Positions 1 to 37,975 of a DNA stretch of 64,000 bases are shown here, in pieces; position 1 is the stretch's first letter; each line of letters opens with the position of its first letter. The DNA lies in NCBI GenBank assembly GCA_009914755.4, contig CP086569.2, forward strand, positions 11,232,001-11,296,000. Reading direction: 5' to 3'. Origin of the DNA: the human T2T-CHM13v2.0 reference genome, Homo sapiens. The notes under the pieces were generated by a model. That model worked only from the letters and a program-made list of their open reading frames with translations, had not been told where the DNA came from and did no database searches. Both the position numbers and the translations under genes were made by a program.

Positions 1-3000
1 TTTCATCCCATTCTATTCCTCTCCATTTCACTCCACTCCACTGCACTCCTGTCCACTGCATTCCATTCCATTTCACTGCTTTCCATTCCATTCCTTTCCC
101 TCGAGATTATCTCACTCTGTCACCCAGCCTGGAGCACAGTGGCACAATCTCAGTCCCATTTCATTTCAACATTCCATTCCATTCCACTCCAATCCACTCC
201 ACTCCAATCCATTCCACTCCACTCCACTCCTCTCCATTCTAGTCCACTCCACTTCTTTCCATTCCATCTAATTCCAATCCACTCCTTTCCACTCCACTCC
301 ACTCCCCTCCATCCCGTTCCATTCCACTCCATTCCATTCCATTTCTTTATTTTGACAGTATCTCACTCTGTCACCCAGGCTTGTGTGCAGTGGCACAATC
401 TTAGCTCACATTTCGTTTCATCATTCCATTCACTCCACTCCAATCAATTTTACTCCACTCCACTTCAAACCATTTCATTCCATTCCATTCAAATCCACTC
501 CACTCCAGTCCGCTCCATTCAACTACACTCCACTCCACTTCACTCCATCCCATTCCACTCCACTCCATTGTACTCCACTCCACTCCAGTCCCCTCTAATC
601 CACTCCATTCCACTCCATTCCATTCCACTCCACTCCACTTCATTGACTCCACACAACAGCACTCCATTCCACTCTACTCCCCTCTACTCCACTCCACTCC
701 ACTCCATTCCATTTCATTCCGTTCCATTCCATTCCTTTCTTTCCACAGGATCTCACTATGTCAAAAAGGATGGAGTTCAGTGGTACAATCTCAGCTCACA
801 TTTTTTTCACCATTCCATTGCTTTCCATTTCATCCCATTCCATTCCACTCTATTTCACTCCACTCCACTCCACTCCTTTCCATTCCACTCCATTGCATTC
901 CATTCTATTGGATTTCACACCATTGCATTCCATTCCTTTCCTTAGACTGGATATCATGGTGTCACCCAGGCTGGAGTGTAGTGGCACAATCTCAGCTCGC
1001 ATTACATGTCAACTTTTCATTGCATTGCATTCTATTCCATTGCATATCATTGCAATCCATTCCAATGCATTCCATTCCATTCCATTCCTTTTCATTCAAT
1101 TCCATTCGTTTCCACTCCATTCCACTCCACTCCACTCCATTCCACTACTTTCCATTACATGTGATTCCATTGCACTCCATTCCACTCCTCTCTACTCCAC
1201 AGCACTCCACTCCACTCCATTCCACTACATCCCATTCCATTCCACTCCATTCCACTGCAATCCACAGCAACGCACTCCACTCCACTTCATTCCATTTCAT
1301 CCCATTCCATTCCATTCCCTTCCATTCAACTCCTTTCTTTCGACAGGATCTCTCTCTGTCACACAGGCTGTAGCGTAGTGGCACAATATCAACACACATT
1401 TCTTTTCAACATTCCATTCCATTCCATTCCATTCCATTCCATTACATTCCATTCCATTGCATTCCATTACATTACATTACATTACACTCAACTCCACTCC
1501 AATCCAGTCCACTCGCCTCCAATCCAATCCATTCCACTCGCCTCCAATCCAATCCATTCCACTCCACTCCATTCCATTTCACTCCACTCAACTCTATTCA
1601 TTCCACTCCACTCCACTCCAATCCAATCCATTCCACTCCACTCCATCCCACTCCACTCCACTCCACTCTGTTCCAATCCATTCCACTCCATTCCACTCTA
1701 TTCCAGTCCACTCCACTGTTTCACTCCACTGCATTCCAATCCACTCCACTCCAGTCCACTTCACTCCATTCCATTCCACTCCACTCCATTCCACTTCGCT
1801 CCACTCCACTCCACTCCTTTCCAATCCATTCCATTGCATTCCATTACACTCAACTGCATTCCATTCCTTTCCATTCCTCTCCACAAACCTCCACTCCACT
1901 CCATTCCATTCCATTCCACTCCATTCCATTCCTTTCTTTCCACAGGATCTCTCTCTGTCACAAAGGCTGGAATGCAGTGACACAATCTCAGCTCACATTT
2001 CTTTACACCATAACATTGCATTCCTTCCCATCCCTTTCCATTCCACTCTATTTCACGCCACTCCACTCCACTCCATTCTATTACATTCCATTTCACTCCA
2101 TTTAATTTCATTCCCTTCTTTTGACAGGATATCACTGTGTCCCCCAGGCTGGAATGCAGTGGCAAAATCTCAGCTGACATTACATGTCAACTTTCGATTG
2201 CATTTCATTGCTTCCGTTGCATTCCATTGCATTCCTTTCCATTCCATTCCCTTCCATTCCATTCCATTGCATTCCATTCCATTCCATTCCATTCCATTCC
2301 ATTCCATTCCTTTGCACTCCATTCCACTTCACTCAACTCCACTCCACTACATTCCATTATATATTATTCCATTACACTCCATTCCACTCCTCTCTACTCC
2401 ACTGCACTTCACTCCACTCCAATCCACTCCATCCCATTTCACTCCTCTCCATTGCCCTACACTCCAGTCCACCCCACTCCTCTCCACTTCATTCCGTTCA
2501 ATTCAATCCCATTCCATTCCACTACATTCCACTCCACTCCCCATCACTCCACTCCACTCCACTCCAATCCACTCCATTACATTCCATTACATTCCATTCA
2601 ACTACATTCCATTCCATTCCTTTCTTTTGAGAGTATCTCACTTTGTCATCCAGGCTGGAACTTAATGGCACAATCACAGCTCACATTTTATTTCACTATT
2701 CCATTCCATTCCATTCCATTCCATTCCATTCCATTCCATTCCATTCCATTCCATTCCATTCCATTCCCTTCCACTAAATTCCCTTCCATTTCTTTCCCTT
2801 TAGAGTACCTCACTCTGTCAACCATCCTGGAGCACAGTAGCAAATCTCAGGTCCCCTTTCATTTCACCATTCTATTGCATTCCATTCCACTCCACTCCTC
2901 CACTCCACTCCAATCCATTCCACTCCACTCCATTCCTCTCCATTCTAGTCCACTCCACTTCTTTCTATTCCAACTCATTCCAATCCACTCCTTTCCACTC

Positions 3001-5292
3001 CACTCCACTCCCCTCCATCCCATTCCATTCCCCTCCATTCCATTACATTCCTTTATTTTGACAGGATCTCACTCTGTCACACAGGCTTGTGTGCAGTGGC
3101 ACAATCTTAGCTCACATTTCATTTCACCATTCCATTCCATTCCATTCAATGGCATTTCGCTTCACTCCAGTCAATTTTATTCCACTCCACTCCACTCCAA
3201 ACAATTCCAGTCCATTCAATTCCAATCCACTCCACTCAACTCCAGTCTGCTCCATTCAACTCCACTCCACTCCACTTCACTCCATCCCATTCCTCTCCAC
3301 TCCATTCTCTCCACTCCACTCCAGTCCCCTCTACTCCACTCCACTCCATTCCGTTCCACTCCACTCCACTCCACTTCATTCAACTCCACTCCACTGCACT
3401 CCATTCCACTCTACTCCCCTCTACTCCACTCCACTCCATTCCATTCCATTCCATTCCATTCCATTCCTTTCTTTCCACAAGATCTCACTCTGTCATAAAG
3501 GATGGATTTCCATGGTACAATCTCAGCTCACATTTCTATTCACTATTCCATTGTGTTCAATTCCATTCTATTCCATTCCATTCCACTCTATTTCCCCTCA
3601 CTCCACTCCACTCCATTCCATTCCACTCCATCCAATTACATTAGACTCCAATCCACTCCACTCCATTCCACTCCGTTACATTACATTCCATTCGACTTCA
3701 CACCATTGCATTTCATTCCTTTCTTTCGACGGGATATCACAGTGTCAACCAGGCTGGAGTGCAGTGGCACAATCTCAGCTCGCATTACATGTCATCTTTC
3801 TATTGCATTCCATTCTGTTCCGTTGCATTCCATTCCATTCCATTCCATTCCATTCCATTCCATTCCACTCCACTCCATTCCACTCCACTCCACTCCACTC
3901 CACTCCACTCCACTCCACTCCACTCCACTCCATTCAATTCCATTCCATTCCATTCCATTCCATTCCATTCCATTCCATTCCATTCCATTCCATTCCACTC
4001 TATTCCATTCCATTCCATTCCACTCTATTCCATTCCATTCCTTTCTTTCGAGAGTATTTCAGTCTGTTACAAAGCCTAGAGTGCAGTGGCACAATCTCAG
4101 CTCACATTTCATTTCACCATTCCATTCCATTCCTTTCCATTCTATTCCATTCAATTCCATTCCATTTTACTCCATTCCCTCCACTCCACTCCACTCCACT
4201 CCACTACATTCCATTCCACTCCATTGCACTCCTCTCCACTCCACTGCACTCCAGTCCTCTCCATTCCACTCCATCCCATTCCACTCGGCTCCATTACACT
4301 GCACTCAAGTCCACCCCAATCCCCTCCACTTCATTCCATTCCATTCCATTCCATCCCATTCAATTTCACTCCATTGCATTCCATTCCTTCCTTTTGACAG
4401 GATATCACTGTGTCTCCCAGGCTGCTGCGCAGTGTCACAATCTCAGCTCACATTACATGTCAACTTTCCATTGTGTTGTGTTCTGTTCCATTGCATTCCA
4501 TTCTATTCCATTCCATTCCATTCCACTCCATTCTGTTCCATTCAATTCCATTCCATTCCACTTCGTTCCACTCCACTCCACTCTACTACATTCGATTACA
4601 TCCGATTCCATTCCACTTCATTCCACTCCTGTCCACTCCACTGCACTCCACTCCACTCCATTCCATTATATCCCATTCCATTCCACTCCATTCCACTCCA
4701 CTCCACTTCACTGCACTCCACTCCATTCCATTTCACTCCATCCCATTCCATTCGACTCCATTCCACTCCACTTCACTCCATTTCAATCCATTCCACTCCC
4801 TTCCATTCCTTTCCATTCCATTTCACTCCTTTGCATTCCATTTCTTTCTTTCGACAGGATAACACTCTTTCCCCCAGGCTGGAATGCAGTGGCACAATCT
4901 CATCTCACATTACATGCCAACTTTCAATTACATGGCATTATATTCCATTGCATTCCATTGCATTCCATTCCATTCCATTCCATAGCATTCCATTCCATTC
5001 CTTTTTTCGAGAGTATCTCACTGTGTCACCCAGCCTGGAGCGCAGTGGCATAATCTCAGCTCACATTTCATTTCACCATTCCATTCTACTCCATTCCTTT
5101 CCATTCCATTGGATTCCACTACACTACACTCCTCTCTTCTCCACTCCAATTGATTCTACTCCAATCCACTCCACTCGATTCCAGTCCACTCCACTCATTT
5201 CCATTCCATCCCATTCCATTCCACTCCTTTCCACTCCACTCCACGCTACTCCAGTCCTCTCCATTCCATTCCACTCCATTCCATCCCATTCC

Positions 5293-5360
5293 TTTCTTTT
5301 GACAGGATCTCCCTCTGTCACCCAAGCTGGTGTGCAGTGGCTCAATCTCAACTCAATTTC
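5293..5360 (-). repeat. Alu-derived fragment (antisense Alu 3' terminus, ~65 bp) embedded in the satellite. Representative of roughly 100 such copies in 1-29836
   Basis: The sequence tttcttttgacaggatctccctctgtcacccaagctggtgtgcagtggctcaatctcaactc is the reverse complement of the Alu right-arm 3' end (…GAGCCGAGATCGCGCCACTGCACTCCAGCCTGGGCGACAGAGCGAGACTCCGTCTCAAAA). Every copy in the array has the same start and end points and the same orientation. Confidence 0.8.
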
Positions 5361-7506
5361 ATTTCACCATTCCATTCCATTCCATTCCATTCCATTCCAT
5401 TCCATTCCATTCCATTCCATTCCATTCCACTGCACTCCACTCCATGCCATTCAATTCCACTCCACTCCACTTCAGTACATTCCATTCCATTACATTCCAA
5501 TCCCTTCTATTCCACTCCTTTCTTTTGACAGGATCTTCTTCTGTCACGTGGGCTGTAGCTTAGTGGCACAATCTCAGCACACATTTTTTTTTTCGCCATT
5601 CGATTGTGTTCTGTTCGTTTCCGTTCCATTCCGTTCCATTATATTCTGCTCCGTTCCACTTCACTCCCTTAAACTTCATTCCAATCAATTCCATTCCACT
5701 CCACTCCACTCCACTCCATTCCAGTCTACTCCATTCCACTCCACTCCAATCCAATCCACTCCTCTCCACTCCATTCAATTCCACACGATTCCACTGCACT
5801 CCTCTCCACACCACTCCACTCCACTGCACTCCATTCCACTGCACTCCATTCCACTCCACTCCAGTCCACTCCACTCCACTGCCTTCCATTCCACTCCACT
5901 CCACTCCATTCCACTGCACTCCATTTCACTCCACTCCCTTCCACTCTACTCCACTCCACTTCATTCCATTCCAAGTCATTCCATTCCATTCCTTTCTTTC
6001 CACCGGATCTCTCTCTGTCACAAAGGCTGTAGTGCAGTTGCACAATCTAACCTCTCCTATCTTTACACCATTCCATTGCATTCCATTCCATCCCTTTCCA
6101 TTCCACTCTATTTCACTCCACTCCACTGCACTCTATCCCATTTCTCTCCATTCCATGCCATTCGACTCCAATCCACTCCACTCCACTCAACTCCATTCCA
6201 TTCCATTCTATTCCATTCCATTTCACTCCATTGCATTCCCTTCCTTTCTTTTGACAAGATATCACTGTGTCACACAGGTTGGAGTGCAGTGGCACAATCT
6301 CAGCTTACATTATGTGTCAACTTACATTTCATTGCATTCTATTCAATTGCATTCCATTGCATTCCATTCCATTCCATTCCATTTTGTTCCATTCCATTTC
6401 ATTCAATTCCATTCCATTCCACTCCGTTCCACTCCACTCCACTAAACTCAACTACATTCCATTACATCTGATTCCATTCCACTCCATTCTAATCCTCTCC
6501 ACTCCACTGCACTCCATTCCACTCCATCCCACTCCATTCGGCTCCATTCCACTGCACTCCTCTCAACTCCAATCCACTCCACTTCATACCACTCCATTCC
6601 ATCCCATTCCATTCCTCTCCATTCCTCTCCAATCCACTTCACTCCTCTCAACTCCACTCCAGTCCACTCCATTTCATTGCATTCCATTCAATTCCATTCC
6701 ACTCCCTTCCATTCCTTTCCTTTCTTTCGACAGTATCTCACTCTGTTACCAAGCCTAGAGCCCAGTGGCACAATCTCAGCTCACATTTAATTTCACCATT
6801 CCATTCCATTCCATTTCATTAAATTCCATTCCATTCCACTCCGTTCCACTCCACTCCACTACATTCCATTCCAATCCATTCCACTCCTCTCCACTCCACT
6901 CCATTACCCTCCATCCCATTCCGTTCAGTTCCATTCCACTGCACTCCACTCCTCCCCAATCCACTCCACTTCTTTCCATTCCATTACATCCCATTCCTTT
7001 CCTCTCCATTCCACTCCAATCCACTTCTCTCCACTCCACTGCACTCCAGTCCACTCCATTTCATTGAATTCCATTCCATTCCCTTCCATTCCATTCCTTT
7101 CTTTCTAGAGTACCTCACTCTGTTACCAAGCCTAGAGCTCAGCGGCACAATCTCAGCTCACATTTCATTTCACCATTCCATTCCATTACGTTCCATTCTA
7201 TTCCATTAAACTCCATTCCATTCCACTCCGTTCCACTCCACTCCACTCCACTCAACTACATTCCATTACATCCGATTCCATTCCACTCCATTTCATTCCT
7301 CTCCACTCCCCTACACTCCATTTCACTCCATCCCATTCCATTCGGTTCCATTCCACTGCACTCCACTCCAGCCCAATCCACTCCATTTCATTCTATTCCA
7401 TTCCATTCCATCCCATTCCATTCCTCTCCATTCCACTCCAATCCACATCACTCCACTCCACTCCACTCCATTCGATTCCATTCCAATCCATTCCATTCCA
7501 TTCCGT
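5293..7506 (+). repeat. One copy of the ~2.2 kb higher-order repeat of the satellite, delimited by successive type-A Alu-fragment landmarks. Internal order is A(5293-5360), D(5519-5592), C(5993-6060), B(6243-6325), E(6721-6800), E'(7098-7175)
   Basis: Successive occurrences of the variant 'ggctggtgtgcagtggctcaatc' (type A) lie at about 5290, 7510, 10030, 12545, 15525, 17635, 20115, 22095, 24755 and 28205. In most copies, type D ('ggctgtagc(a/t)tagtggcacaatctcagcacacatttcttttcacc') follows type A by 180-230 bp. Next comes type C ('tttctttccacaggatctctctctgtcacaaaggctg.agtgcag'), then type B ('gatatcactgtgtcacccaggctggagtgcagtggcacaatctcagctcacattacatgtcaac'), then type E ('gagagtatctcactctgt.acc.agcctggagc.cagtggca'). 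Confidence 0.7.
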
Positions 7507-10500
7507 TCTTTTGACAGGATCTCACTCTGTCATCCAGGCTGGTGTGCAGTGGCTCAATCCCAGCTCACATTTCCTTTCAGCATTCCATTCCATTCCATTG
7601 CACTGCACTCCACTCCATGCCACTCAATTCCACTCCACTCCACTTCAGTCCATTCCATTCCATTACATTCCAATCCCTTCTATTCCCCTCCTTTCTTTTG
7701 ACAGAATCTCCCTCTGTCACATGGGCTGTAGCTTAGTGGTACAATCTCAGCACACATCTCTTTTCACCATTCCATTGTGTTCCATTCCGTTTTGTTCTAT
7801 TCCGTTCCATTCCGTTCTGCTTCGTTCCACTCCACTCCCCTACAGTCCATTCCACTCCATGCCACTCCACTCCACTCCATTCCAATCTACTCTATTCCAC
7901 TCCACTCCACTCCAATCCACTCCTCTCCACTCGATTCCATTCCACGCAATTCCACTGCACTCCACCCCATCCCACTCCACTCCACTCCACTGCACTTCTT
8001 TCCACTCCATTTCTGTCCACTCCACTCCACTCCATTGCATTCTATTCCACCCCACTCGAATCCATTCCACTCCACTCCATTTCACTCCACTCCATTCCAC
8101 TCCACTCCACTCCATTCCACTCCACTCCATTCCATTCAACACCATTCCATTCCATTTCTTTCTTTCCACTGGATCTCTCTCTTTCACAAAGGCTGTAGTA
8201 CAGGGGCAAAATCTAAGCTTACCTATCTTTACACCATTCCGTTGTATTCCATTCCATCCCATTCCATTCCACTCTCTTTCACTCCACCCCACTCCACTCC
8301 ACTCTATCCCATTTCAATCCATTCCATGCCATTCTACTCCAATCCACTCCATTCCACTCAATTCCATTCCATTGCTCTCCATTGCATTCCATTCCTTTCT
8401 TTCAACAAGATATCACTGTGTCACCCCAGTTGGAGTGCAGTGGCACAATCTCAGCTCACATTACCTGTTAACATTCCATTACATTGCCTTCTATTTAATT
8501 GCATTCCTTTGCTTTCCATTCTATTCCATTCCATTCCATTCTAGTCCATTAAATCCCATTCCATTCCACTCCGTTCCACTCCATTCCACTCCACTACATT
8601 CCATTGCAATCCATTCCACTCCTCTCCACTCCACTCCACTCCACTCCATTACCCTCCATCCCATTCCTTTCGGTTCCATTCCTCTGCACTCCACTCCACC
8701 CCAATCCACTCCACTTCATTACATTCCATTACATCCCATTCCATTCCTCTCCATTCCCCTCCAATCCACTTCACTCCACTCCACTGCTGTCCACTCTATT
8801 TCATTGCATTCCATTGCATTCCATTCTAATCCATTCCATTCCATTCCTTTCTTTTGAAAGTATCTCACTCTGTTCCCAAGCCTAGAATGCAGTGGCACAA
8901 TCGCAGCTTACATTTCATTTCACCATTCCATTCCATTCTATTCCATTAAATTCCATTCCATTCTACTCCTTTCCAGTCCACTCCACTCCACTACATTCCA
9001 TTCCAATCCATTCCACTCCTCTCCACTCCACTTCACTCAACTCCACTCCATTACCCTCCATCCCATTCCATTCGGTTCCATTCCACTGCACACCATTCCA
9101 CCCCAATCCACTCCACTTCATTCCATTCCATTACATCCCATTCCATTCCATTCTATTCCATTCATCTCCACTCCATACCAATCCATTCCACTCCATTCCA
9201 GTCCACTCCTCTCCATTCCGTTCCATTCCATCCCATTCCATTCCACTCCGTTCCAGTACACTCCATTCCACTCCACTCCACTCCACTCCATTCCACTCCA
9301 CTCCACTCCACTAAATTCCACTCCACTCCATTCCATTCTATTCCATTTCACTCCATTGCATTCCATTCCTTACTTTAGACAGGATATCATTGTGTCACCC
9401 ATGCTTGAGTGCAGTGGCACAATCTCAGCTCACACTACATGTCAACATTCCATTGCATTGCATTCTATTGCATTGCATTGAATTCCATTCCATTCCATTC
9501 AATTGTATTAAATTCCATTCCGTTCTACTCCACTCCACAATTTTTCATTACTTCTGATTCCATTCCACTCCATTCCACTCCTCTCCACCCCACTGCACAC
9601 CACTCCACTCCATTCCAGTCAATCCCTTTCCATTCCGCTCCATTCCACTTCACTCCACTCCACCCAACTCCACTCCAATTCATTTCATTCCTTTCCATCC
9701 CTTTCCAGTCCTCTCCATTCCACTCTACTCCACTGCACTCCATTCCACTCTACGGCAGTCCACTCCATTAAATTCCATTCCCTTGCATTCCCTTCCTTTC
9801 CTTTCTTTTGAGAGTATCTCATTCTGTCACCCAACCTGGAGCGCAATGGCACAAACTCCATTCACATTTCATTACCATGCCGTTCCACTCCATTCCATTC
9901 CATTCCATTCCATTTCATACCATTTCATTCCATTCCACTCCTTACCTCTCCACTCCAGTCTACTCCACTCCACTCCATTCCATTCCATTCCATTCTACTC
10001 CTTTCCATTCCATTCCTTTCTTTTGACAGGATCTCACTCTGTCATTCATGCTGGTGTGCATTGGCACAATCTCAACTCGTATTTCATTTCACCATTCCAT
10101 TCCATTCCACTGCACTCCACTCCAACCCACTGAATTCCACTCCACTCCCCTCCACTCCACTCCACTCCATTCCACTCCACTACACTCCCCTACACTCCAA
10201 TCCACTCCATTCCACTTTACTCCACCCCACTCCTTTACACTACACTCCACTCTACCCCACTTCACTCCAATCCACTCCTCTCCATTCCATTCCATTACAC
10301 TCCATTCCATTCCATTCTTTCTTTCTACAGGATCTCACTCTGTCACAAATTCTGGAGTGCAATGGCACAATCGCAGCTCACATTTCTTTTCACCATTCCG
10401 TTGCAATAAATTCCATTCCATTCCTTTCTTTCTACAAGATCTCACTCTGTCACAAAGGCTGGAATGCACTCTCACAATCTCAGCTCACATTACTTTTCAC

Positions 10501-19500: not shown

Positions 19501-22500
19501 CCACTCCACTCCAATCCACTGGACCACTTCCGATTACATCTTTTTCCATTACACTCAATTCCACTCCTCTCCACTCCACTGCTCTCCACTCCACTCCATT
19601 CCACTCCATTCCATTCCATTCCTCTCCATTCCACTACACTCCACTCTACCCCACTCCACTCCATCTCATTCCATTCCATCCAATAACATTCCTCTCCATT
19701 CCACTCCACTCCACTTCACTTCACTCCACTCCACTCCAGTCCACTCTGTTCCATTCCATTGTATTCCTTTCCATTCCTTTCTACTGCATTCCATTCTATT
19801 ACTTTCTTTCGAGAGTGTCTCACTCTTTCAACCAACCTGGATGGCAGTAACACAATCTCAACTCACATTTCGTTGCACCATTCCATCCAGTCGATTCCAT
19901 TCCATTCCATTTCACTCCACTCCACTCCGCTCCACTCCAAATAATTCCACTCCACTCCACTCCACTCCATTCCAGTCAACTCCACTCCTTTCCATTCCAT
20001 CCCATTACATTCCACTCCTTTCCACTCAACTCCACTCCATCCAATCCATTCCATTCCATTCCACTCCATTCCATTCCATTCCACTCCATTCCATTCCATT
20101 CCTTTCTTTTGACAGGATCTCCCTCTGTCACCCAGGCTGTTGTACAGTGGAACAATCTCAGCTCACATTTCATTTCACCATTCCATTCCATGCTATTACA
20201 CGGCACTCCACTCCACTCAATTCCACTCAACCCCACTACAATCCATTCCATTCCACTCCATTCCAATCCCTTCCATTCCACTCCTTTCTTTCGACAGTAT
20301 CTCCCTCTGTCACACAGGCTGTAGCATAGTGGCACTATCTTAGCACACATTTCTTTTCACCATTCCATTCCATTCAATTCCGTTCTGTTCCATTCCGTCC
20401 CTTTCTGTTCCACTCTTTTCCACTACACTGGACTCCACTCCTTTGCACTCCACTCCATGCCACTGCACTCCACTCCATGCCACTGCACTCCACTGCATTC
20501 ATTTCCACTGCTTTCCACTCCAATCCACTCCATTACACTCCACTCCATTCCACTCCACTACCCTCCATTCCACTCCATTCCATTCCACTCCACTCTGCTC
20601 CACTTCAGTCCACTCCACTCCTCTCCACTGCATTCCATTCCACTCCACTCCACTCCACTCCATTCCACTCAACTCTATTCCACTCAACTCCACTCCACTC
20701 TACTCCATTGCATTCCACTCCATTCCATTCCATTCTTTCCTTTCCACAGGATCTCACTCTGTCACAAATGCTGGAATGTGGTGGCACAATCTCAGCTCAA
20801 ATTTCTTTTCACTCTTCTATTACATTCCTTTCCATCCCATTCCATTCCACTCTATTTCACTCCATTCCACTCCCCTCCACTCCACTCTACTCCTCTCCAT
20901 TCCATTGCACTCCATTCGATTCCATTCCATCTCACTCAGTTGCATTCCATTCCTTTCTTTCAAAAGGCTATCACTGCGTCACCCAGGCTGGAATGCAGTG
21001 GCACAATCTCAGCTCACATTACATGTCAACTTCCCATTGTATTGTATTCTATTCCATTTTATTCCACTGCATTCCATTCCATTCCATTCCACTCCACTCC
21101 ATTCTACTCCACTCCACTCCAGTACATTCCATTACATCCAATTCCGTTCCACTCCTCTACACTCCACTGCACTCCACTCCACTCCATTCCATTCCATCCC
21201 ATTCCATTCTGCTCCATTCAACTACACTCCACTCCACCCCACTCCACTCCTCTTCATTCCATTCCATTCAGTCCCATTCCATTCCTCTCCATTCCACTCC
21301 ACTCCACTTCACCCCACTCCACTCCTCTCCAGTCCATTCCATTCCATTCCATTCCACAGCATTCCATTCCATTCCTTTCTTTTGAGTTTCTAACTCTGTC
21401 AACCATCCTGGAGCACTGTTGCACAATCTCAGCTCACATTTCATTTCACCATTCCATTCCATTCCATTCCATTCCATTCCATTCCATTCCATTCCATTCC
21501 ATTCCGTTCCGTTCCGTTCCACTCTGTTCCAATCCACTCCCCTCCACTCCACTACATTCCATTACACACGATTCCATTCCACTCCATTCCACTCCTTTTC
21601 ACTCCACTGCACTCCACTCCACTCCATTCCCTTCGATCCCATTCAATTCCACTCCATTCCACTGCACTCCCTTCCACCCCACTCCACTCCACTTCAATCC
21701 AATCCATTTCAACCCATTCCATTCCTCTCCATTTCACTCCACTTCACTTCATGAATTCCACTGCACTTATGTACACTCCATTCCATTCCATTCCACTGCA
21801 TTCCATTCTATTCCTTTTCCTCGATTTTATCTCACTCTGTCACCCAGACTGGAGTGCAGTGGCACAATCTCACGTCCCATTTCATTTCACAATTCCATTC
21901 CATTGCATTGCATTCCATTCCATTCCATTTTACTCCAATACACTCCAATCCACTCCACTCCACTCCATTCCACTGCATTCCAGTCCACTCCATTTCTTTC
22001 CATTCCATCTCATTCCAATCCAATCCTTTCCACTCCACTCCACTCCATTCCACTCCATTCCATTCGATTACACTCCATTCCATTCCATTCTTTTGACAGG
22101 ATCTCACTCTGTCACCCAGGCTGGTGTGCAGTGGCAGAATCTCTGCTCACATTTCTTTTCACTATTCCATTCCATTCCACTCCATTCCATTCCACGGCAC
22201 TTCAGTCCACTATAATCAATTTTTCTCCACTCCACTCCAGTCCAAACCATTCCATTCCATTTCAATCCATTCCAATCCATTCCGCTCCACTCCGCCCCAC
22301 TCCACTCCACTCCACTCCATTCAACTAAGCTCCTCTCCACTTCCACAGCACAATCTCCAATCTCAGCTCTCATTTCATTTCACTATTCCATTCCATTCCA
22401 TTCCATGGCATTTCACTCCACTATAATCAGTTTTACTCCACTCCACTCCAAAACATTCCATTCCAATCCATTCCATTCCACTCCACTCCACTCCATTCAA

Positions 22501-25500
22501 CTATGCTCCTCTCCATTCCACGGCACTTCACTCCACTATAATCAATTTTACTCCACTCCACTCCAAACCATTCCACTCCACTCCACTCCACTTCATTCGT
22601 CTCCACTCCACTCCACTCCATTTCACTCTATTCCCCTCCACTCCACTGCTCTCCACTCCATTCCATTCCTTTCTTTCCACAGTATCCCATTCTATCAAAA
22701 AGGCTGGAGTTCAGTGGTACAATCTCAGCTCACATTTATTTTCACCATTCAATTTCTTTCCATTCCATCCCATTCCATTCCACTCTATTTCACTCCACTC
22801 CACTAAACTCCATTCCATTCCTCTCCATCCCTTTCCATTCGACTCCACTCCACTCCATTCCACTCAATTCCATTACCTTCAATTCGAATTCACACCATTG
22901 CATTCCATTGCTTTCTTTCGACGGGATATCACGGTGTCACCCAGGCTTGTGTGCAGTGGTACAATCTCAGCTCACAATACATGTCAGCTTTCCATTGTAT
23001 TGCATTCTATTCCATTGCATTCCATTCCATTCCATTCCATTCCATTCCATTCCATTCCATTCCATTCCATTCCTGTGCATTCCATTCCTGTGCATTCCAT
23101 TCCATTCCTTCTCATTCAGTTCCATTCCTTTCCACTCTGTTCCACTCCACTCCACTCCACTACATTCCATTACATGCAATTTCATTCCACTCCATTCCAC
23201 TCCTCTCCACTCCAAAGCACTCCACTCCACTCTATTCCACTACATCCATTCCATTCCACTCCATTCCACTGCAATCTACTCCACCCCACTCCACTCCACT
23301 TCATTCCATTTCATCCCCTTCCATTGAATTCCCTTTCGTTCCACTGCTTTCTTTCGACAGGATCTCTCTGTCACACAGGCTGTAGCATAGTGCCACGATC
23401 TCAACACACATTTCTTTTCACCATTCCATTCCATTCCATTCCATGCCATTCCATTAAATTCCACTCCACTACACTCAACTCCACTACACTCCACTCCACT
23501 CCTCTCCACTCAATACCTTTCCCCTCCATTCAACTCTACTCATTCCACTCCAATCCACTCCATTCCATTCCACTCCACTCCATGCCACTCCACTCCACTC
23601 AACTACACTCCATTGCATTCCACTCCACTCAACTCCATTCCACTCCACTCAACTCCATTTCACTGCACTCCATTGCTATCCACTCCACTCCACTCCAATC
23701 TACTCCATTCCATTCCACTCTGCTCCATTCCACTCCATTCCAATCCATTCCACTCCACTCCATTCCAATCCATTCCATTCCATTCCACTCCACTCCATTC
23801 CACTCCATTCCATTCTGCTCCACTCACCTCCACTAAACTCCTCTCCATTCCATTCCACTCGATTCCATTCCATTCCTTTCTTTCCAGAGGATCTCTCTCT
23901 GTCACAATGGCTCGAGTGCAGTGGCACAATCTCAGCTCACATTTATTTTCACCATTCCATTGCATTCCATTCCATCCCATTCCATTACACTCCACTCCAC
24001 TCCATTCCATTCCATTCTATTACATTCCATTTCACTACATTGAATTTCTTTTCTTTCTTTCAACGTGATATAACTGTGTCACCCAGGCTGCTGTGCGGTG
24101 GCACAATCTCCACTCACATTACATGTCAACTTTCCATTACATTGCATTCTTTCCATTGCATTCCATTGCATTCCTTTCCATTCCATTCCACTCTGTTCCA
24201 CTCCACTCAACTCCACTCCACTGCTTTCCATTATATATGATTGCATTACACTCTACTCCACTCCTCTCTACTCCACTGCACTTCACTCCAATCCATTAAT
24301 TCCAACCCAATCCCTTCCTCTGCAGTCTCCTCACTCCACTCCACTTAATTCCTTTCCATTCCATCCTATTCCATTCTGCTCAATTCCACTCCACTCCACA
24401 TCACTCCACTCCACTCCATTCCAATCCACTCCATTCCATCCAACTACATTCCAATCCATTCCTTTCTTTCGAGAGTATCTCACTCTGTCACACAGCCTGG
24501 AGCGCAATGGCACAATCTCAGCTCACATTTCATTTCACCATTCCATTCTATTCAAATCGATTTCATTCCATTCCATTCCGCTCCACTCCACTCCACTCCA
24601 TTCCAATCCATTCCATTCAACTCCACTCCATTCCATTCCAGTCCACTCCTCTCCTTTCTATTCCATCCCATTCCATTCCACTCCTTTCCACTCCACTCCA
24701 CTCCAGTCCATTGCATTCCATTCCACTCCATTCCATTCCATGACTTTCTTTTGACAGGATCTCACTCTGTAACCCAGGCTGGTGTGCAGTGGCACAATCT
24801 CAGCTCACATTTCATTTCACCATTCCATTGCACTTCATTCCATACCACTGAAATCCACTGCAATCCGCCAATTTCACTCCACTCCACTCCAATCCATTCC
24901 ATTCCATTATACTCTAATCCCTTCTATTACATTCCCCTCTTTTGACAGGGTCTCCCTCTGTCACACAGGCTGTAGCGTATTCGCCAAATCTCAGTAAATA
25001 TTTCTTTTCAGCATTGCATTCCAGTCTTTTCTTTTGCATTCTGTTCCATTCCATTCCATTCCGTTCCACAACACTTCACTGCACTCCACTCCTTTCCTTT
25101 CCACTCCACGCCATCCCACTGAACTCCACTCCACTCCACTTCACTCCACTCCATTCCATTCCAATCCATTCCAATCCACTCCACACCACTTCATTCCACT
25201 CCACTCAACTCCACTCAATTCCACTCCACTGCATTCTGCTCCATTCCACTCCACTCCATTCCACTCCACTCCAGTCTACTTCATTCCACTCCACTCCACT
25301 CCATTCCACTCCGTTCCACTCCATTCCATTCCATTTCTTTCTTTTTGTAGGATCTCACTCTGTCGCAAAGCCTGCAGTGTAGTTGCACAAATTCAGCTCA
25401 TATTTCTTTTGACCATTCCATTGCATTCCATTCCATCCCATTCCATTACACTCTATTTCACTCTACTCGACTCCACTCCACTCCACTCCATTCCATTCCA

Positions 25501-28500
25501 CTCCATCCCATTCCTTTAGACTCCATTCCACTCCACTCCATTCCACTCTTCTCCAGTACACTCCAATCCCCTCTATTAAATTCCATTTCAGTCCATTTCA
25601 ATCCATTGATTCCATTCCTTTCTTTTGACAAGATATCACTGTGTCACCCAGGCTGGAGTGCAGTGGCACAATCTCAGCTCACATTACATGTCAACTTTCC
25701 ATTGCATTGCATTCTATTCAATTGCATTCCATGGCATTCCATTCGATTCCATTCCATTCTGTTTCATTCCTTTCTGTTCCATTCCATTCTGTTCCATTCC
25801 ATTCCATTAGATTCCACTCCATTCCACTCCATCCCACTCCACTCCACTTCATTCCATTCCATTCCAACCAATTCCATTCTTCTTCATTCCACTCCACTCC
25901 ACTCCATTCCACTATATTCCTTTCCACTCCACTCCATTCCACTCCACTCCTTTCCACTCCACTACACTCCACTCCATTCCACTCCATTCCACTCCACTCT
26001 TCTCCATTCCACTCCACTCCATTCACCTCCACTCCACTCCATTCCACTCCACTCAAATCCACTCCTCTCCACTCCACTCCACTTCACTCCACTCCACTCC
26101 ATTCCACTCCACTTCTCTCCATTCCACTCCAATCCACTCCACTCCACCCCACTCCATTCCATTCCATTCCACTCCATTCCATTCCTTTCTTTCCACAGGA
26201 TCTCACTCTGTGACAAAGGCTGGAGTGCAGTGGCACTATTTCAGCTCACTTTTATTTTTGCCATTGTATTGCATTCCACTGCATCCCATTCCATTCCATT
26301 CTATTTCACTCCACTCCACTCCCCTCCACTCCACTCCACTCCACACCCTTCCATTCCAACGCATAACATTCCATTCGACTCCATTTCACTCTACTCCACT
26401 CCGCTCCTATCATCTCCACTCCATTCCACTCTATTGCTTTCCATTCCATTCCATTTTATTTCACTCCACTGCATTCCATTCGTTTCTTTTGACAGGATAT
26501 CAGTGTGTCACCCAGTCTGGAGAGCAGTGGCACAATCTCAGCTCACATTACATGTCAACTTTCCTTTTTATTGCATTCTATTCAATTACATTCCATTGCG
26601 TTCCATGCCATTCAATTTTTATTCCATTCCATTAAATTCCATTCCATTCCACTCCGTTCCACACTACTCCACTACATTACATTACATCCGATTCCATTCC
26701 ACTCCATTCCACACCTATCCACTCCACTGCACTCCACGCCAATCCATTCGGCTCTATCCCATTCCATTCCGCTACATTCCACTGCACTCCACTCCACCCA
26801 ACTACATTCAACTTCATTCCATTCAATTCCATCCAATTCCAGTCTTCTCCATTACACTCCACCTCATTCCACACCTCTCCATTCCACTCCACTCGTTTCT
26901 ACTACACTCCATTCCAGTCCACACCATTCCACTCCACTCCACTCCACTCCATTCCACTCCACTCCACTACAATCTACTCCATTCCACTCCCCTCCATTCC
27001 ACTCCACTCCACTAAATTCCCCATTCCACTCCACTCCACTAAATTCCACCCTACTCCATGCCACTCCATTCCACTCCACTCCACTCCCTTCCACTCCACT
27101 CCACTCAATTGCACTCCACTACACTCCATTCCACTCTACTCCACTCCACTCCTCTCCATTACACTCCACTCCACTCCAATCCACTCCATTCCATTCCATT
27201 CCTTTCTTTCCACAGGATCTCCCTCTGTCACAAAGTCTGGAGTGCAAAGGCACAATCTGAGATCACATTTCTTTTCACTATTCTATTGCTTTCCATTCCA
27301 TCCCATTCCATTCCAGTCTATTTCACTCCACTCCACTGCACTTCACTCCATTCCATTCCACTCCATCACATTCCATTCTACTCCATTCAACTCCACTCCA
27401 CTCCACTCCATTCCACAACACTCCACTCTACTCCATTGCATTCCATTTCACTCCATTGCATTCCATTCCTTTCTTTCGACAGTATATCTCTGTGTCACCC
27501 AGGCTGCTGTGCAGTGGCACAATTCCAGCTCATATTACATGTCAACTTTCCATTACATTGCATTCTATTCCATTGCATTCGATTGCTTTCCTTTCCATTC
27601 CATTCCATTCCATTCCATTCCATTCCATTCCATTCCACTCCGTTCCACTGCACTCCACTCCACTAGATTTAATTACATCTGTCTCCATTCCACTGCATTC
27701 CACTCCTGTCTACTCCACCGCATTCCACTCCACTCCATTCCACTCCATCCCATTCCATTACGCTCCAATCCACTGCACTCCACCCTACCCCACTCCACTC
27801 CACTTCATTCCATTCCATTCCATCCCATTTCATTCCTCTCCATTCCAATCCACTCCACTCCACTCCACTCCTCTCGAGTCCATGCCATTCCATTCCATTC
27901 CACAGCATTCCCTTCCATTCCACAGCATTCCCTTCCATTCCTTTTTTTAGAGTATCTCACTCTGTCACCCAGCCTGAAGCGCAGTGGCATAATCTCAGCT
28001 CACATTTCATTTCACCATTCCATTCCATTCCATTCCTTTCTATTTCACTCCACTATACTCCACTCTTGTCCTCTCCAATTGATACCACTCCACTCCATTC
28101 CAGTCCACTCCACTCCTTTCCATTCCATCCCATTCCATTCCAATCCACTCCACTCAACTCCACTCCATTCCATTCCATTCCACTTCATTCCATTCCATTC
28201 CTTTCTTTTGACAGGATCTCACTCTTTTACCCAGAATGGTGTGCAGTGACTCAATCTCAGCTCACATTTCTTTTCACCATTCCATTCCACTCCATTGCAT
28301 TCCATTCCATTCCATTCCACTGCACTCCACTCCACACCACTCAATTCCACTCCACTCTACTCCAGTCCATTTCTTTCCATTACATTCCAATCCCTTCTAT
28401 TCCACTCATTTCTTTCGACAGGATCTCCCTCTGTCACACGGGCTGTAGCTTAGTGGTACAAACTCAGCACACATTCCTTTTCAACATTCTATTTCATTCC

Positions 28501-29868
28501 TTTCCATTCCTTTCCATTCCATTCCATTCCATTCCACTCCACTACACTACACGCCATTCCATTCCACTCCATTCCACTGCACTCCACTCAAGTCCGCTCC
28601 ACTCCACTCCAATCCATTTCATTCCAATCTATTCCATTCTACTCCACTCCACTCCACACCAATCCACTCCTCTCCACTCCATTCCATTCCATTCCACACC
28701 ATTCCACTGCCCTCCACTTCACCCCACTCCAGTACATTCCACTGCCTTCCATTCCACTCCACTCCAGTTCACTCCACTCCACTCCACTCCACTGCATTCC
28801 ACTTCACTCCACTCCACTCCATTCCCCTCCACTCCATTCCACTCCACTCCACTGAACTCCATTTCATTCTATTCCAATCCCTTTCATTCCATTTCTTTCT
28901 TTCCACCGAATCTCTCTCTGTCACGAAGTCTGTAGTGCAGTAGCTCAATCTCAGCTCACATTTATTTACACCATTCCATTGCATTCCATTCCATCCCATT
29001 CCATTCCACTCTTTTTCACTCCACTCCACTCCACTCTACTCAATCCCATTTCACTCAATCCCATTCCATTCGACTCCATTCCACTCCACTCAACTCCACT
29101 CCTATCCACTCCTTTCCATTCCATTCTATTCCATTACATTGCATTCCATTGCATTCCATTCCTTTCTTTCAACAGGGTGTCACTGTGTCATCCAGGTTGG
29201 AGTGCAGTGGCACAATCTCAGCTCACATTACATGTCAACTTTCCATTTCATTACATTCTATTCAACTGCGTTCCTTTGCATTCCATTCCATTCCATTCTG
29301 TTCCATTCCGTTTCAGTCGATTCCATTCCATTCCACTCCGTTCCCCTCCACTCCACTAAGCTCAACTACATTCCATTACATCTGATTCCGTTACACTCCA
29401 TTCCACTCCTCTCCACTCCACTCCATTCCACTGCATCCCATTACATTCGGCTCCATTCCACTGCACTCTACTCCACCCCAATCCACTCCACTTAAATCCA
29501 TTCCATTCCATCCCATTCCATTCCTCTCCATTCCACTCCAATCCACTTCACTCCACTCCACTCCACTCCACTCCAGTCCAACTTCATTTCATTGTGTTCC
29601 ATTCCATTCCATTCCACTCCATTCCATTCCATTCTTTCTTTCGAGAGTATCTCACTCTGTTACCAAGCCTAGAGCACAGTGGCACAATCTCAGCTCACAT
29701 TTCGTTTCACCATTCCATTCCATTCCATTCCATTCCCCTCCATTCCACTCCACTCCACTCCACCACATTCAATTACATCCGATTCCATTCCACTCCATTC
29801 CACTGCTGTCCATTCCACTGCATTCCACTCCACTTTCTGTATAGCCTGCAGAACGGTGGGCCAATTAA

Positions 29869-30212
<344 letters not shown>

Positions 30213-36835: not shown

Positions 36836-37975
36836 AGTGTCTACAAGGAGGGGATGATGATGATGGTGGTGATGGTGATGATGAAGTTGGTTGTAATGGT
36901 GATGATGGTGGTGGTAGTGGTGGCAGTGATGGTGGTGATAATGGTGATGATGGAGATGTTGGTAATGGTGATGATAGTGATCATGATGGTGATGGTGATG
37001 ATGGTGATGATGGTATTATGATAGTGATGATGGTGTTGGTGATGGTGATGATGATGATGATGGTGGTGATGATGATGGTGATAATGATGGTATGATGACA
37101 GTGATAATGTTGATGATGTTGGTGATGGGGATGGTAGTGGTGATGGTGATGGTGATAATGGTGATGGTGGTGATTATGAGGATGGTGGTGATGATGGTGA
37201 TGGTGACAATAATGGTGATAATGATGGTATTATGATAGTGATGATGGTGGTGATGGTGATGATAATGGTGATAATGACGGTATGATGGTAGTGATAATGG
37301 TGATGGTGATGGTGATGATGATGATGATAATGGTGATAATGATGGTATGATGGTAGTGATAATGGTGATGATGTTGGTGATGGGGATGATAGTAGTGGTG
37401 ATGATGATGGTGATGGTGGTGATGGTGATAACGGTGATGGTGATTATGAGGATGGTGGTGATGAAGGTGATGGTGACAATAACGGTGATAATGATGGAAT
37501 TATGATAGTGATGATGATGGTGATGGTGATGATGATGGTGATGATAATGGTGATAATGATGGCATGATGGTAGTGATAATGGTGATGGTGATGGGGATGG
37601 TATTGGTGATGATAGTGGTGATTATGAGGATGGTGGTGATGATGGTGATGGTGATAATGGTGATAATGATGGTGATTATGAGAATGGTGGTGATGGTGAT
37701 GATGGTATTATGATAGTGATGATGGTGATGGAGGTGATGGTGATGATGGTGGTGATGATGGTGATGATAATGGTGACAGTGATGGTATGATGATAGTGAT
37801 AATGGTGATGATGTTGGTGATGGGGATGGTGGTGGCGATGATGGCGATGATGATGATAATGATGGTGATCATAATGAGGATGATGATGGTGATGATGACA
37901 GTGGTCACTGCAATGATAACAGTAGTGGTGATGATGAAGATGATGATGATGACAGTGATAATGATAACCATGACA
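36836..37975. repeat. Imperfect (GGTGAT)n/(GATGAT)n hexamer-based minisatellite, ~1.1 kb
   Basis: gatgatgatggtggtgatggtgatgatgaagttgg…ggtgatggtgatggtgataatggtgatggtggtgattatgaggatggtggtgatgatggtgatggtgacaataatggtgataatgatgg… continues through about 37975, with sub-blocks that recur at a longer period (for example 'ggtgattatgaggatggtggtgatgatggtgatggtgacaataatggtgataatgatggtattatgatagtgatgatgg'). The track ORFs here (MVMMKLVVMVMM…, MVIIITVIII…) are artefacts. Confidence 0.85.

What the first reader, a model, noticed from the sequence alone, without database searches (positions are those of the whole stretch)
1..29836. HSat3 array organised as a ~2-2.7 kb higher-order repeat whose sub-blocks are punctuated by five diverged variants of a co-amplified antisense Alu 3'-end fragment
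The array is not a homogeneous pentamer tract. A ~60-75 bp piece of the Alu right-arm terminus (antisense, with its T-rich rc-tail) recurs about 100 times. Every copy has the same truncation points and orientation. This implies a single ancestral Alu insertion that was truncated and then amplified as part of the satellite unit, rather than many independent insertions. The copies fall into five or more sequence types: A 'ggctggtgtgcagtggctcaatc', D 'ggctgtagcatagtggcacaatctcagcacacatttcttttcacc', C 'ccacaggatctctctctgtcacaaaggctg', B '…gatatcactgtgtcaccc…cacattacatgtcaac', and E 'gagagtatctcactctgt.acc.agcctggagc'. They occur in a conserved order A-(~200 bp)-D-(~450)-C-(~250)-B-(~450)-E, with occasional extra B/E/C blocks. 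Type-A landmarks lie at about 353, 3055, 5290, 7510, 10030, 12545, 15525, 17635, 20115, 22095, 24755 and 28205. This is a three-tier hierarchy of pentamer, then Alu-tagged sub-block, then higher-order repeat. It gives built-in landmarks for mapping, sizing and copy-typing an otherwise intractable satellite. I cannot tell from memory whether this matches a catalogued HSat3 subfamily or higher-order repeat.
Basis: seen in the sequence. Interest (0 to 1): 0.6.

Follow-up and report, generated by a model that had tools for sequence, protein, structure and literature searches.

The report
Alu-tagged human satellite 3 repeat array
This is a 30-kb stretch of human pentamer satellite DNA (HSat3 type) in which one ancient Alu tail fragment was copied along with the satellite, producing five ordered block types; the structure is real, but it is an ordinary and already recognised kind of satellite architecture.

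Summary
Window 1-29,836 is a one-orientation (CATTC/CACTC)n array carrying 83 full copies and 1 partial copy (not ~100) of a ~66-nt antisense Alu 3'-end fragment. Every copy leaves Alu at the same base. The copies form five clades (A12, D11, C21, B19, E20) that follow the cycle A>D>C>B>E>A in 59 of 82 transitions (shuffles: 16.7 +/- 3.6, max 34). The pentamer spacers are position-specific as well. Single origin is strongly supported: same breakpoint, same orientation, and CA at all six ex-CpG sites in all five types.

Three corrections. The basic cycle is ~1.6 kb. The window's A-to-A units run 2.0-3.5 kb with variable block content. They are only 84.5% identical, against 81.9% out of register. 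This is therefore an old, unhomogenised nested tandem repeat, not an alpha-satellite-style HOR.

The same blocks, order and spacings recur on unrelated public contigs, so the design belongs to the whole family.

T2T papers already report HSat3 arrays whose repeating units include TE/Alu fragments. No function is indicated. Chromosome and subfamily could not be assigned with these tools. Interest is low.

The parts
1..29836 (+). HSat3-type pentamer array, with the C-rich CATTC/CACTC strand on +. It runs off the left edge of the window and ends at ~29,836.
   Evidence: GC skew about -0.75 in every 2-kb bin up to 30 kb. TRF period 5 up to 29,832. ATTCC 22.9% and ACTCC 21.2% of 5-mers, CpG observed/expected 0.34. 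Boundary sequence read.
24730..28186 (+). Unit 11 (ADCBCBCBE, 3,457 bp), the longest A-to-A unit. It is listed here because this entry also carries the coordinates of all 83 fragment copies. Coordinates are the start of a 99-nt profile window; the Alu-derived core is start+15 to about start+81. A: 331, 3037, 5278, 7490, 10002, 12529, 15506, 17613, 20088, 22072, 24730, 28187. D: 1319, 5504, 7677, 12741, 15688, 17061, 17790, 20270, 23333, 24921, 28394. C: 721, 1918, 3453, 5978, 8144, 10304, 10410, 11041, 11648, 13312, 14428, 16050, 18202, 19069, 20722, 22655, 23862, 25323, 26171, 27188, 28881. B: 922, 2100, 3705, 4373, 4830, 6230, 8381, 9355, 13583, 14689, 16297, 19316, 20939, 22897, 24039, 25604, 26468, 27455, 29148. 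E: 80, 2606, 2778, 4027, 4987, 6706, 7083, 8833, 9787, 12267, 14026, 15235, 16739, 18632, 19788, 21361, 21800, 24448, 27927, 29621.
   Evidence: nhmmer census, typing, unit table.
1..330 (+). Tail of a unit cut by the window edge; contains one E block (profile start 80).
331..3036 (+). Unit 1, blocks ACBDCBEE (2,706 bp).
   Evidence: Positional orthologue of unit 10.
3037..5277 (+). Unit 2, blocks ACBEBBE (2,241 bp).
5278..7489 (+). Unit 3, blocks ADCBEE (2,212 bp). Its two E copies are a younger local duplicate (p-distance 0.071, against 0.151 to other E copies).
7490..10001 (+). Unit 4, blocks ADCBEBE (2,512 bp).
10002..12528 (+). Unit 5, blocks ACCCCE (2,527 bp), the most aberrant unit.
12529..15505 (+). 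Unit 6, blocks ADCBECBE (2,977 bp). Its two CB segments are 90% identical to each other.
15506..17612 (+). Unit 7, blocks ADCBED (2,107 bp).
17613..20087 (+). Unit 8, blocks ADCECBE (2,475 bp).
20088..22071 (+). Unit 9, blocks ADCBEE (1,984 bp).
22072..24729 (+). Unit 10, blocks ACBDCBE (2,658 bp). It has the same unusual arrangement as unit 1.
22358..22390 (+). Partial fragment copy (profile positions 66-98 only), lying where a D block would be expected after A. Probably the remnant of a deleted block.
   Evidence: E 3.6e-4. Sequence read.
28187..29836 (+). Unit 12, the canonical ADCBE cycle (1,650 bp), ending at the array boundary.
24745..24808 (-). Best-preserved Alu-derived core (type A), matching Alu positions 224-289 with the Alu sense strand on the minus strand. 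83.3% identity to the AluY consensus.
   Evidence: E 2.5e-12; 102 bits

Best explanation
This is neutral satellite DNA: an old, unhomogenised member of a family of HSat3-type arrays whose repeating unit carries a co-amplified Alu fragment.

Proposed history:
(i) One Alu inserted into a (CATTC)n array, with its sense strand on the GGAAT strand. It was 5'-truncated at insertion or shortened later, leaving ~66 nt of right-arm 3' end plus a remnant of the tail. (Inferred.)
(ii) That copy had already lost all six CpGs when a segment containing it plus a few hundred bp of pentamers was tandemly duplicated. (The shared state is shown; the mechanism, unequal exchange or slippage, is inferred.)
(iii) Five adjacent copies diverged into blocks A, D, C, B and E, each with its own spacer length. 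Together they form a ~1.6-kb cycle. (Shown.)
(iv) The five-block cycle was itself amplified and spread to several arrays. (Shown, because the same blocks, order and spacings occur on unrelated contigs.)
(v) In this array, whole blocks were later gained or lost by out-of-register exchange between paralogous blocks, giving units of 2.0-3.5 kb. At least one multi-unit segment was duplicated ~22 kb away. The copies then decayed without homogenisation. (The pattern is shown; the mechanism is inferred.)

No sequence-specific function is indicated. The Alu piece is a passenger that happens to serve as a barcode.
For: Alu homology with a single breakpoint and a single orientation in 83 of 83 copies.

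All five type consensuses share CA at all six ex-CpG sites and the GGATCTC variant, while 13 independent flank Alus vary at those sites.

There are five clades in cyclic order: 59 of 82 transitions, 0 of 100,000 shuffles as high.

Spacers alone are class-specific: 40 of 59 nearest neighbours, against a shuffle mean of 8.4.

Divergence is tiered. Copies differ from their type consensus by 7-10%, and type consensuses differ from the overall consensus by 3-12%. Pairwise distance is 0.12-0.16 within types and 0.18-0.29 between types.

Variant units differ from ADCBE by whole blocks.

Some extra blocks are younger local duplicates: unit 3 EE at 0.071, and unit 6 CB segments at 90% identity. Units 1 and 10 share the ACBDCBE arrangement, and 5 of 7 positional pairs rank 1-3 among same-type copies.

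The design is family-wide. 120 public contigs carry the same junction, always antisense to the CATTC strand. Among confidently typed external copies 150 of 184 transitions are canonical, with spacings 187/392/252/457/277 bp. None of these contigs is more than 86% identical to the window.

Window copies are not monophyletic relative to external copies. For type B the nearest neighbour is external in 17 of 19 cases, and for types B, C and E mean window-to-external distance is smaller than window-to-window distance.

There is no sign of constraint on the fragment: its within-type distance of 0.12-0.16 is about the same as same-class spacer divergence of 0.14-0.165.

Against: The higher-order signal is weak in absolute terms: 84.5% in register against 81.9% out of register, with no sharp period.

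Most extra blocks (units 2, 5, 11) are no closer to their neighbours than to distant copies. Local unequal exchange is therefore directly supported for only a few events.

The types were defined from the same distances that were later used for the NJ tree, so that agreement is partly circular. Order and spacers are the independent evidence.

Uniform CpG-to-CA decay could partly reflect strand-biased mutation in a strongly strand-asymmetric array rather than shared ancestry.

The external contigs are short-read metagenome assemblies. They were selected with a pattern taken from this window, are presumed but not shown to be human, and may be collapsed towards consensus.

The Alu consensus and the subfamily diagnostics come from memory. 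The subfamily is unresolved: one site looks J/Sz-like, another S/Y-like.

Chromosome and HSat3 subfamily are not assigned.
Confidence: 0.85

Rival explanations
1. Many independent Alu insertions into the satellite, for example at a preferred L1-endonuclease target in the pentamer, each truncated similarly.
For: Alus are abundant locally: there are 13 full-length copies in the 34-kb flank. The T2T-Y paper describes HSat3 as 'intermingled with Alu fragments', without stating a single origin.
Against: 83 of 83 copies have the same orientation and the same breakpoint. All types share identical CpG-decay outcomes at six sites and a shared non-CpG variant, whereas independent flank Alus vary at those sites. 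No copy retains any Alu body. The types are position-specific.
Confidence: 0.01
2. The array amplified in situ from a single local founder ADCBE unit, so the five-type design is specific to this locus.
For: Type A window copies mostly have window nearest neighbours (8 of 12, against 1.3 expected). Types D and E show a mild excess. Some local duplications are visible.
Against: The same blocks, order and spacings occur on contigs that are at most 86% identical to the window. Window B copies have external nearest neighbours in 17 of 19 cases, and for types B, C and E window-to-external distances are smaller than window-to-window distances. This fits block types that predate the array.
Confidence: 0.1
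3. The Alu fragment is retained because it is functional in the array. Candidates are the antisense-Alu polypyrimidine tract plus AG acting as a splice acceptor, a protein-binding site, or a phasing or boundary element.
For: The fragment is present in every block here and in 744 copies on external contigs. The T-rich tract followed by ACAG/G is preserved in the consensus.
Against: The fragment diverges as fast as the surrounding spacers. Type-specific substitutions fall throughout it, including in the tract. There is no Rfam match. Per the abstract of PMC2241877 as listed, most stress-induced satellite III transcripts contain one strand; from my own knowledge that is the G-rich strand, on which this fragment would read as sense Alu rather than as an acceptor.
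Confidence: 0.04
4. Assembly artefact: a collapsed or shuffled satellite assembly that creates an apparent irregular order.
For: Satellite arrays are error-prone to assemble, and the unit composition here is irregular.
Against: Units differ by 11-19%, so reads would place uniquely. Orientation is uniform and the junction with unique flank is clean. The same block grammar appears on independently assembled contigs.
Confidence: 0.03

Closest known systems
HSat3 arrays 'intermingled with Alu fragments' on chrY and the acrocentric short arms (Rhie et al., T2T-Y, 10.1101/2022.12.01.518724), and HSat3 repeating units that include ancient TE fragments (Altemose et al., 10.1101/2021.07.12.452052, citing Bandyopadhyay et al. 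2001)
   Same: A pentamer satellite carrying short Alu pieces as part of the repeated unit. There is no recent homogenisation of the fragments. The organisation is a multi-kb nested tandem repeat.
   Different: In the text I could read, those papers report no phylogenetic clustering of the fragments by subgroup or chromosome, and they do not describe clustering by position within the unit. Here the fragments form five position-specific clades in a fixed cycle. Whether this window is one of the arrays they analysed could not be tested.
Cloned acrocentric satellite III units assigned to HSat3A4 and HSat3A1: pTRS-47 (1,366 bp), pR-1 (1,529), pR-2 (1,556), pW-1 (1,524). Source: Altemose 2014 Table S1
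   Same: Unit lengths measured on the external contigs that carry the A-E blocks cluster at 1,361-1,366 bp and 1,520-1,557 bp. The pentamer mix is GGAAT/GGAGT, as described for satellite III (PMC7767330).
   Different: This is only a coincidence of sizes. The clone sequences and the primary papers were not available. The window's own units are longer (2.0-3.5 kb) and irregular.
HSat1B / DYZ2 (a 2.47-kb unit containing one Alu-derived subunit)
   Same: An Alu piece was captured once and amplified as part of a satellite unit.
   Different: HSat1B is an AT-rich composite with one long Alu subunit per unit and more than 98% identity between units. Here the matrix is pentameric, there are five diverged 66-nt fragments per cycle, and unit identity is ~85%.
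DYZ1 / HSat3A6 (a ~3.6-kb nested tandem repeat)
   Same: A multi-kb repeat built from CATTC-derived sequence.
   Different: DYZ1 is highly homogeneous and Y-specific, and the text I read does not describe it as Alu-tagged.
Alpha-satellite higher-order repeats
   Same: Ordered, diverged sub-units are repeated as a larger unit, and whole-sub-unit indel variants occur.
   Different: Blocks here are unequal in length (177-720 bp). Identity between units is barely above background. The T2T authors reserve the term 'HOR' for discrete monomers of similar length and use 'NTR' for cases like this one.

Membership tests
Human satellite 3 (HSat3 / satellite III, broad sense) | Long arrays derived from the (CATTC)n = (GGAAT)n pentamer, with GGAGT variants | tested here: met
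   The ATTCC and ACTCC rotation classes make up 22.9% and 21.2% of 5-mers. TRF finds period 5. Strand asymmetry is uniform.
Human satellite 3 (classical definition, Prosser 1986, as quoted in Altemose 2021 Table S2) | Occasional interspersed 10-bp motif containing GGGTTG | tested here: not met
   0 matches to A[CT]TCGGGTTG or its reverse complement, and 0 matches to GGGTTG, in 29.8 kb. The table describes the motif as 'occasional'. From my own knowledge it is not required in the k-mer-based subfamily scheme. I therefore file the array as HSat3-type in the broad sense only, with no subfamily assigned.
Human satellite 3 versus HSat2 | Absence of the HSat2-type enrichment of CATTCGATT-like units | tested here: met
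   ATTCGATTCC occurs 4 times in 29.8 kb.
HSat3 subfamily (A1-A6, B1-B5; Altemose 2014) | [quoted passage not shown] | not testable with these tools
   The held copy of Dataset S2 is truncated within HSat2A1. No human reference or cenSat track is available.
HSat3 (genomic context) | Pericentromeric or acrocentric short-arm location | not testable with these tools
   No human genome collection is available. The flank contains no diagnostic gene or RNA.
Alu SINE (as a fragment) | Sequence homology to the Alu right-arm 3' end plus A-tail | tested here: met
   blastn to AluY positions 224-289, E down to 2.5e-12. The copy profile cross-hits the 3' ends of the flank Alus at E 1e-6 to 1e-12. Alignment.
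Alu SINE (complete element) | Dimeric ~300-nt structure with left arm and A/B boxes | tested here: not met
No copy extends 5' of Alu position ~223.
Alu SINE (independent retrotransposition events) | Target-site duplications flanking each copy | not testable with these tools
   Flanks are pentamer repeats, so duplications would be undetectable. The other evidence argues for one event.
Higher-order repeat in the alpha-satellite sense | A fixed number of similar-length monomers, with identity between units far above identity between monomers | tested here: not met
   Blocks are 177-720 bp. 10 different block compositions occur among 12 units. Unit identity is 0.845 against 0.819 out of register.
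Nested tandem repeat (NTR; Altemose et al.) | A multi-kb repeat unit built from a short ancestral repeat, without equal-length monomers | tested here: met
   Cyclic block order, class-specific spacers and A-to-A units of 2.0-3.5 kb. Definition.

The most novel reading that the evidence does not exclude
The five-block, Alu-barcoded ~1.6-kb cycle (A-D-C-B-E) may be the ancestral architecture of a whole multi-chromosome group of HSat3 arrays and may not have been described explicitly. If so, the T2T-Y finding of 'no phylogenetic clustering' of HSat3-Alu fragments would be explained by paralogous block position, not chromosome, being the main axis of variation. Block typing could then be used to reconstruct exchange and decay histories among acrocentric, Y and pericentromeric HSat3 arrays.
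Probability: 0.25. Interest if true: 0.4.

Novelty: already known. Interest (0 to 1): 0.2.

Why it matters
The practical value is modest. The 83 typed fragments give an unambiguous coordinate system for a 30-kb satellite block that would otherwise look featureless. That helps with read placement, with sizing structural variants in whole-block steps, and with comparing haplotypes or ape orthologues. Conceptually the array is a clean textbook example of how a transposon fragment, captured once, records the stepwise growth of a satellite: pentamer, then block, then five-block cycle, then block-level rearrangements. It also shows that some HSat3 arrays are old relics that escaped homogenisation. 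It does not reveal a new kind of element or a function.

Tried and rejected
(1) Fuzzy-regex motif typing and an all-against-all self-BLAST of the array both timed out. I replaced them with alignment-based clustering and block- and unit-wise alignments.

(2) Subfamily assignment with the Altemose 2014 subfamily-specific 24-mers failed. The held file stops within HSat2A1, and none of the Alu-junction strings occur in any held supplement.

(3) The primary papers on the acrocentric satellite III clones (Bandyopadhyay 2001, Jarmuz 2007, Choo 1990 and 1992) and the Science version of Altemose 2022 are not held. The suggested link to pR-1, pR-2 and pTRS-47 therefore rests on unit sizes only.

(4) The T2T repeat-annotation preprint has no relevant HSat3/Alu text.

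(5) Rfam at gathering thresholds gives 0 hits in the window. ORFs in the flank are low-complexity or Alu-derived artefacts. The locus could not be identified.

(6) A scan of prokaryote genome contigs for the junction returned 0 hits.

(7) I considered the full-length Alu next to the array (29,924-30,201, same orientation) as the source of the fragment and rejected it. Its CpG-decay pattern differs (for example TG rather than CA at the TCTCGG site), and the fragment family is multi-locus.

(8) I attempted to assign an Alu subfamily. The terminal motif GACAGGATCTC is closest to the J/Sz-type CCCTGTC, but ATCTCAGCTCAC is S/Y-type. Because the consensuses are from memory, I left this unresolved.

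(9) I considered absolute dating from divergence and did not pursue it. Mutation rates in satellites, CpG effects and possible gene conversion make it unreliable.

Full report
**What is in the sequence**

Window 1-29,836 is a single-orientation pentamer satellite. GC skew is about -0.75 in every 2-kb bin and drops to about 0 at 30 kb. TRF reports period 5 up to 29,832. The ATTCC and ACTCC rotation classes account for 22.9% and 21.2% of all 5-mers. This is the GGAAT/GGAGT mixture that reviews give for satellite III (PMC7767330). The array runs off the left edge of the window, so its full size is unknown. It ends at ~29,836 against ordinary Alu-rich sequence.

**The Alu fragment**

Within the array it finds only antisense matches, which run from Alu position ~224 to ~289 with E-values down to 2.5e-12. 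None reaches further into the Alu body.

A profile built from the copies finds 83 full copies and one partial copy (22,358-22,390), all on the same strand. It also hits the 3' ends of the independent full-length Alus in the flank at E 1e-6 to 1e-12. That internal control does not depend on my memory of the consensus.

In a joint alignment the array copies are co-linear with those Alus from the T-rich tail to GCTCAC. They then all switch to satellite sequence. The 12 nt after the breakpoint differ from the Alu continuation at a mean of 9.2 positions (minimum 7), and from the satellite consensus at 1.9. The size, orientation and common truncation are as stated.

**Types and order**

In an NJ tree each type is a clean clade (F1 0.98-1.0, against 0.33-0.44 for shuffled labels). 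Bootstrap support is strong for D and B and moderate for A, C and E. This agreement is partly circular, because the labels come from the same distances.

The independent evidence is positional. The order string is:

E | ACBDCBEE | ACBEBBE | ADCBEE | ADCBEBE | ACCCCE | ADCBECBE | ADCBED | ADCECBE | ADCBEE | ACBDCBE | ADCBCBCBE | ADCBE

- 59 of 82 transitions follow A>D>C>B>E>A, against 16.7 +/- 3.6 (maximum 34) in 100,000 shuffles.
- Start-to-start spacings are about 190, 470, 250, 450 and 270 bp.
- With the fragment removed, the pentamer spacers alone are still class-specific. The nearest neighbour is of the same class for 40 of 59, against a shuffle mean of 8.4 and maximum of 23.

**How regular is the 'higher-order repeat'?**

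It is not very regular.

- A-to-A units are 1,984-3,457 bp, with 10 different block compositions among 12 units. The only unit that is exactly ADCBE is the last one (1,650 bp).
- In-register identity between units averages 0.845 (0.80-0.89). A half-unit shift gives 0.819 +/- 0.016.
- A k-mer interval spectrum shows only broad peaks near 2.1, 2.7 and 4.6 kb.

This is an old, diverged structure. It fits what the T2T authors call a nested tandem repeat better than an alpha-satellite-type HOR. Divergence is tiered. Copies differ from their type consensus by 7-10%, and type consensuses differ from the overall consensus by 3-12%.

**Single origin**

- All five type consensuses share the breakpoint and the orientation.
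- All five read CA at each of the six former CpG sites, and all carry the GGATCTC variant.
- The 13 independent flank Alus show mixtures of CG, TG and CA at the same sites.

Independent insertions are effectively excluded. One caveat is that strand-biased mutation in such an asymmetric array could contribute to the uniform CA outcome. The breakpoint evidence does not depend on that.

The neighbouring full-length Alu (29,924-30,201) has the same orientation but a different decay pattern. It is not the source.

**Related sequences elsewhere**

The prokaryote genome collection returned none. These contigs are pentamer satellite and carry 744 fragment copies. In 119 of the 120 loci all copies lie in one orientation, and it is always the same one relative to the CATTC strand. 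They are presumably host (human) DNA, which is an inference.

None is more than 86% identical to the window, and the median is 77%. They therefore represent other arrays or unsampled parts of the family.

Many external copies type poorly, which suggests other variants exist. Among confidently typed copies, however, 150 of 184 transitions are canonical. Spacings are 187, 392, 252, 457 and 277 bp, which sum to about 1.57 kb.

External unit lengths cluster at 1,361-1,366 bp and 1,520-1,557 bp. These figures coincide with the published sizes of pTRS-47 (1,366), pR-1 (1,529), pR-2 (1,556) and pW-1 (1,524), which belong to HSat3A4 and HSat3A1 on acrocentric chromosomes (Altemose 2014 Table S1).

Window copies are not monophyletic relative to external ones. 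For type B the nearest neighbour is external in 17 of 19 cases. For types B, C and E, window-to-external distances are smaller than window-to-window distances. This fits block types that predate the array, with the window being a decayed, unhomogenised member. Short-read contigs may be collapsed towards consensus, which would exaggerate this effect.

**Mechanism**

The best-supported account is neutral satellite evolution in five steps:

1. One Alu was captured in a pentamer array.
2. A fragment-bearing segment was duplicated in tandem.
3. Five neighbouring copies diverged into a ~1.6-kb cycle.
4. That cycle was amplified and dispersed.
5. In this array, whole blocks were then gained and lost.

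Direct support for local unequal exchange exists for only a few events. The two E copies in unit 3 differ by 0.071, against 0.151 to other E copies. The two CB segments of unit 6 are 90% identical. Most extra blocks are as old as the array.

Units 1 and 10 share the odd ACBDCBE arrangement, and 5 of 7 positional pairs rank 1-3 among same-type copies. Units 10-12 find their best spacer matches in units 0-3 in 14 of 20 cases, but the reverse holds in only 7 of 22. This points to an old multi-unit duplication about 22 kb apart, although the evidence is asymmetric.

Nothing suggests that the fragment is functional. It diverges as fast as the spacers, and there is no Rfam match.

**Comparison with what is known**

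[quoted passage not shown] It also introduces nested tandem repeats for multi-kb HSat2,3 units (10.1101/2021.07.12.452052).

[quoted passage not shown] It found no local homogenisation and no clustering by subgroup or chromosome (10.1101/2022.12.01.518724).

This array is an instance of that known kind. I did not find the explicit five-clade, position-specific grammar in the accessible text. That is a descriptive refinement rather than a new kind of element.

On membership, the pentamer criterion for HSat3 is met. The classical GGGTTG-containing 10-mer quoted in Altemose's Table S2 is absent. I therefore file the array as HSat3-type in the broad sense, with subfamily and chromosome unassigned. 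The tools for that assignment (24-mers, a human reference) were unavailable.

**Verdict**

The kind is already known. Interest is low (0.2).

The most novel reading still open is that block position, not chromosome, is the main axis of variation of HSat3-Alu fragments genome-wide, and that this has not been described. I give this a probability of about 0.25, and it would be of moderate interest if true.

Noticed in passing
window 55233-57574: A 2.3-kb purine-rich tract of degenerate GGGAGG/GGAGAG units (TRF periods 4, 6, 14 and 18), with extreme strand asymmetry (GC skew +0.79, AT skew +0.68 at 56-58 kb). It generates long spurious low-complexity ORFs on both strands. It is a candidate for H-DNA or G-quadruplex formation.
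   Followed up: no
window 36853-37898: About 1 kb of a degenerate (GATGGT/GATGAT)n repeat (TRF periods 6, 9 and 12, 66-68% matches). It accounts for the GC-skew bump at 36-38 kb.
   Followed up: no
window 61808-62581: A GC-rich minisatellite with a 32-bp unit (63-bp dimer), ~24 copies, 77-78% matches. The 307-aa ORF at 61638-62561 is simply this repeat read through.
   Followed up: no
window 29924-61119: 13 full-length or near-full-length Alus in both orientations, 71-92% identical to the AluY consensus, in the 34 kb next to the array. The nearest one (29924-30201) has the same orientation as the array fragments but a different CpG-decay pattern, so it is not their source.
   Followed up: partly
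window 331-7489 versus 22072-29836: Units 1-3 resemble units 10-12 (identity 0.87-0.89, against a mean of 0.845). Units 1 and 10 share the unusual ACBDCBE block order. k-mer interval peaks occur at 20.7 and 22.9 kb. This suggests an old multi-unit duplication, but the nearest-neighbour evidence is asymmetric (14 of 20 one way, 7 of 22 the other).
   Followed up: partly
L077 and L034 (metagenome contigs): Two independent contigs share a three-unit super-cycle [ADCBE][ADCEE][ADBE] (~4.9-5.1 kb). Another array of the family therefore has a further, more regular tier of repetition.
   Followed up: partly
L004, L025, L112, L042; L094, L083 (metagenome contigs): Other arrays of the family are built differently. 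Some have runs of D-type blocks only, with irregular spacings of 259-882 bp. Others have single-type arrays with a ~360-400-bp period. Many external copies fit none of A-E well (median classification margin ~5 nats).
   Followed up: no
window 22358-22390: A stump of a fragment copy (3' third only) sits where a D block would be expected in unit 10. It looks like the scar of a block deletion.
   Followed up: partly
L058 (metagenome contig, 6.2 kb): This is the only retrieved contig with little pentamer content (5%) and with hits on both strands. It appears to be ordinary Alu-bearing sequence that matched the junction pattern by chance.
   Followed up: no
window 51551-51738 and 47015-47161: A 94-bp unit repeated twice (87% matches), and an (ATGG)n microsatellite of ~37 copies.
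   Followed up: no
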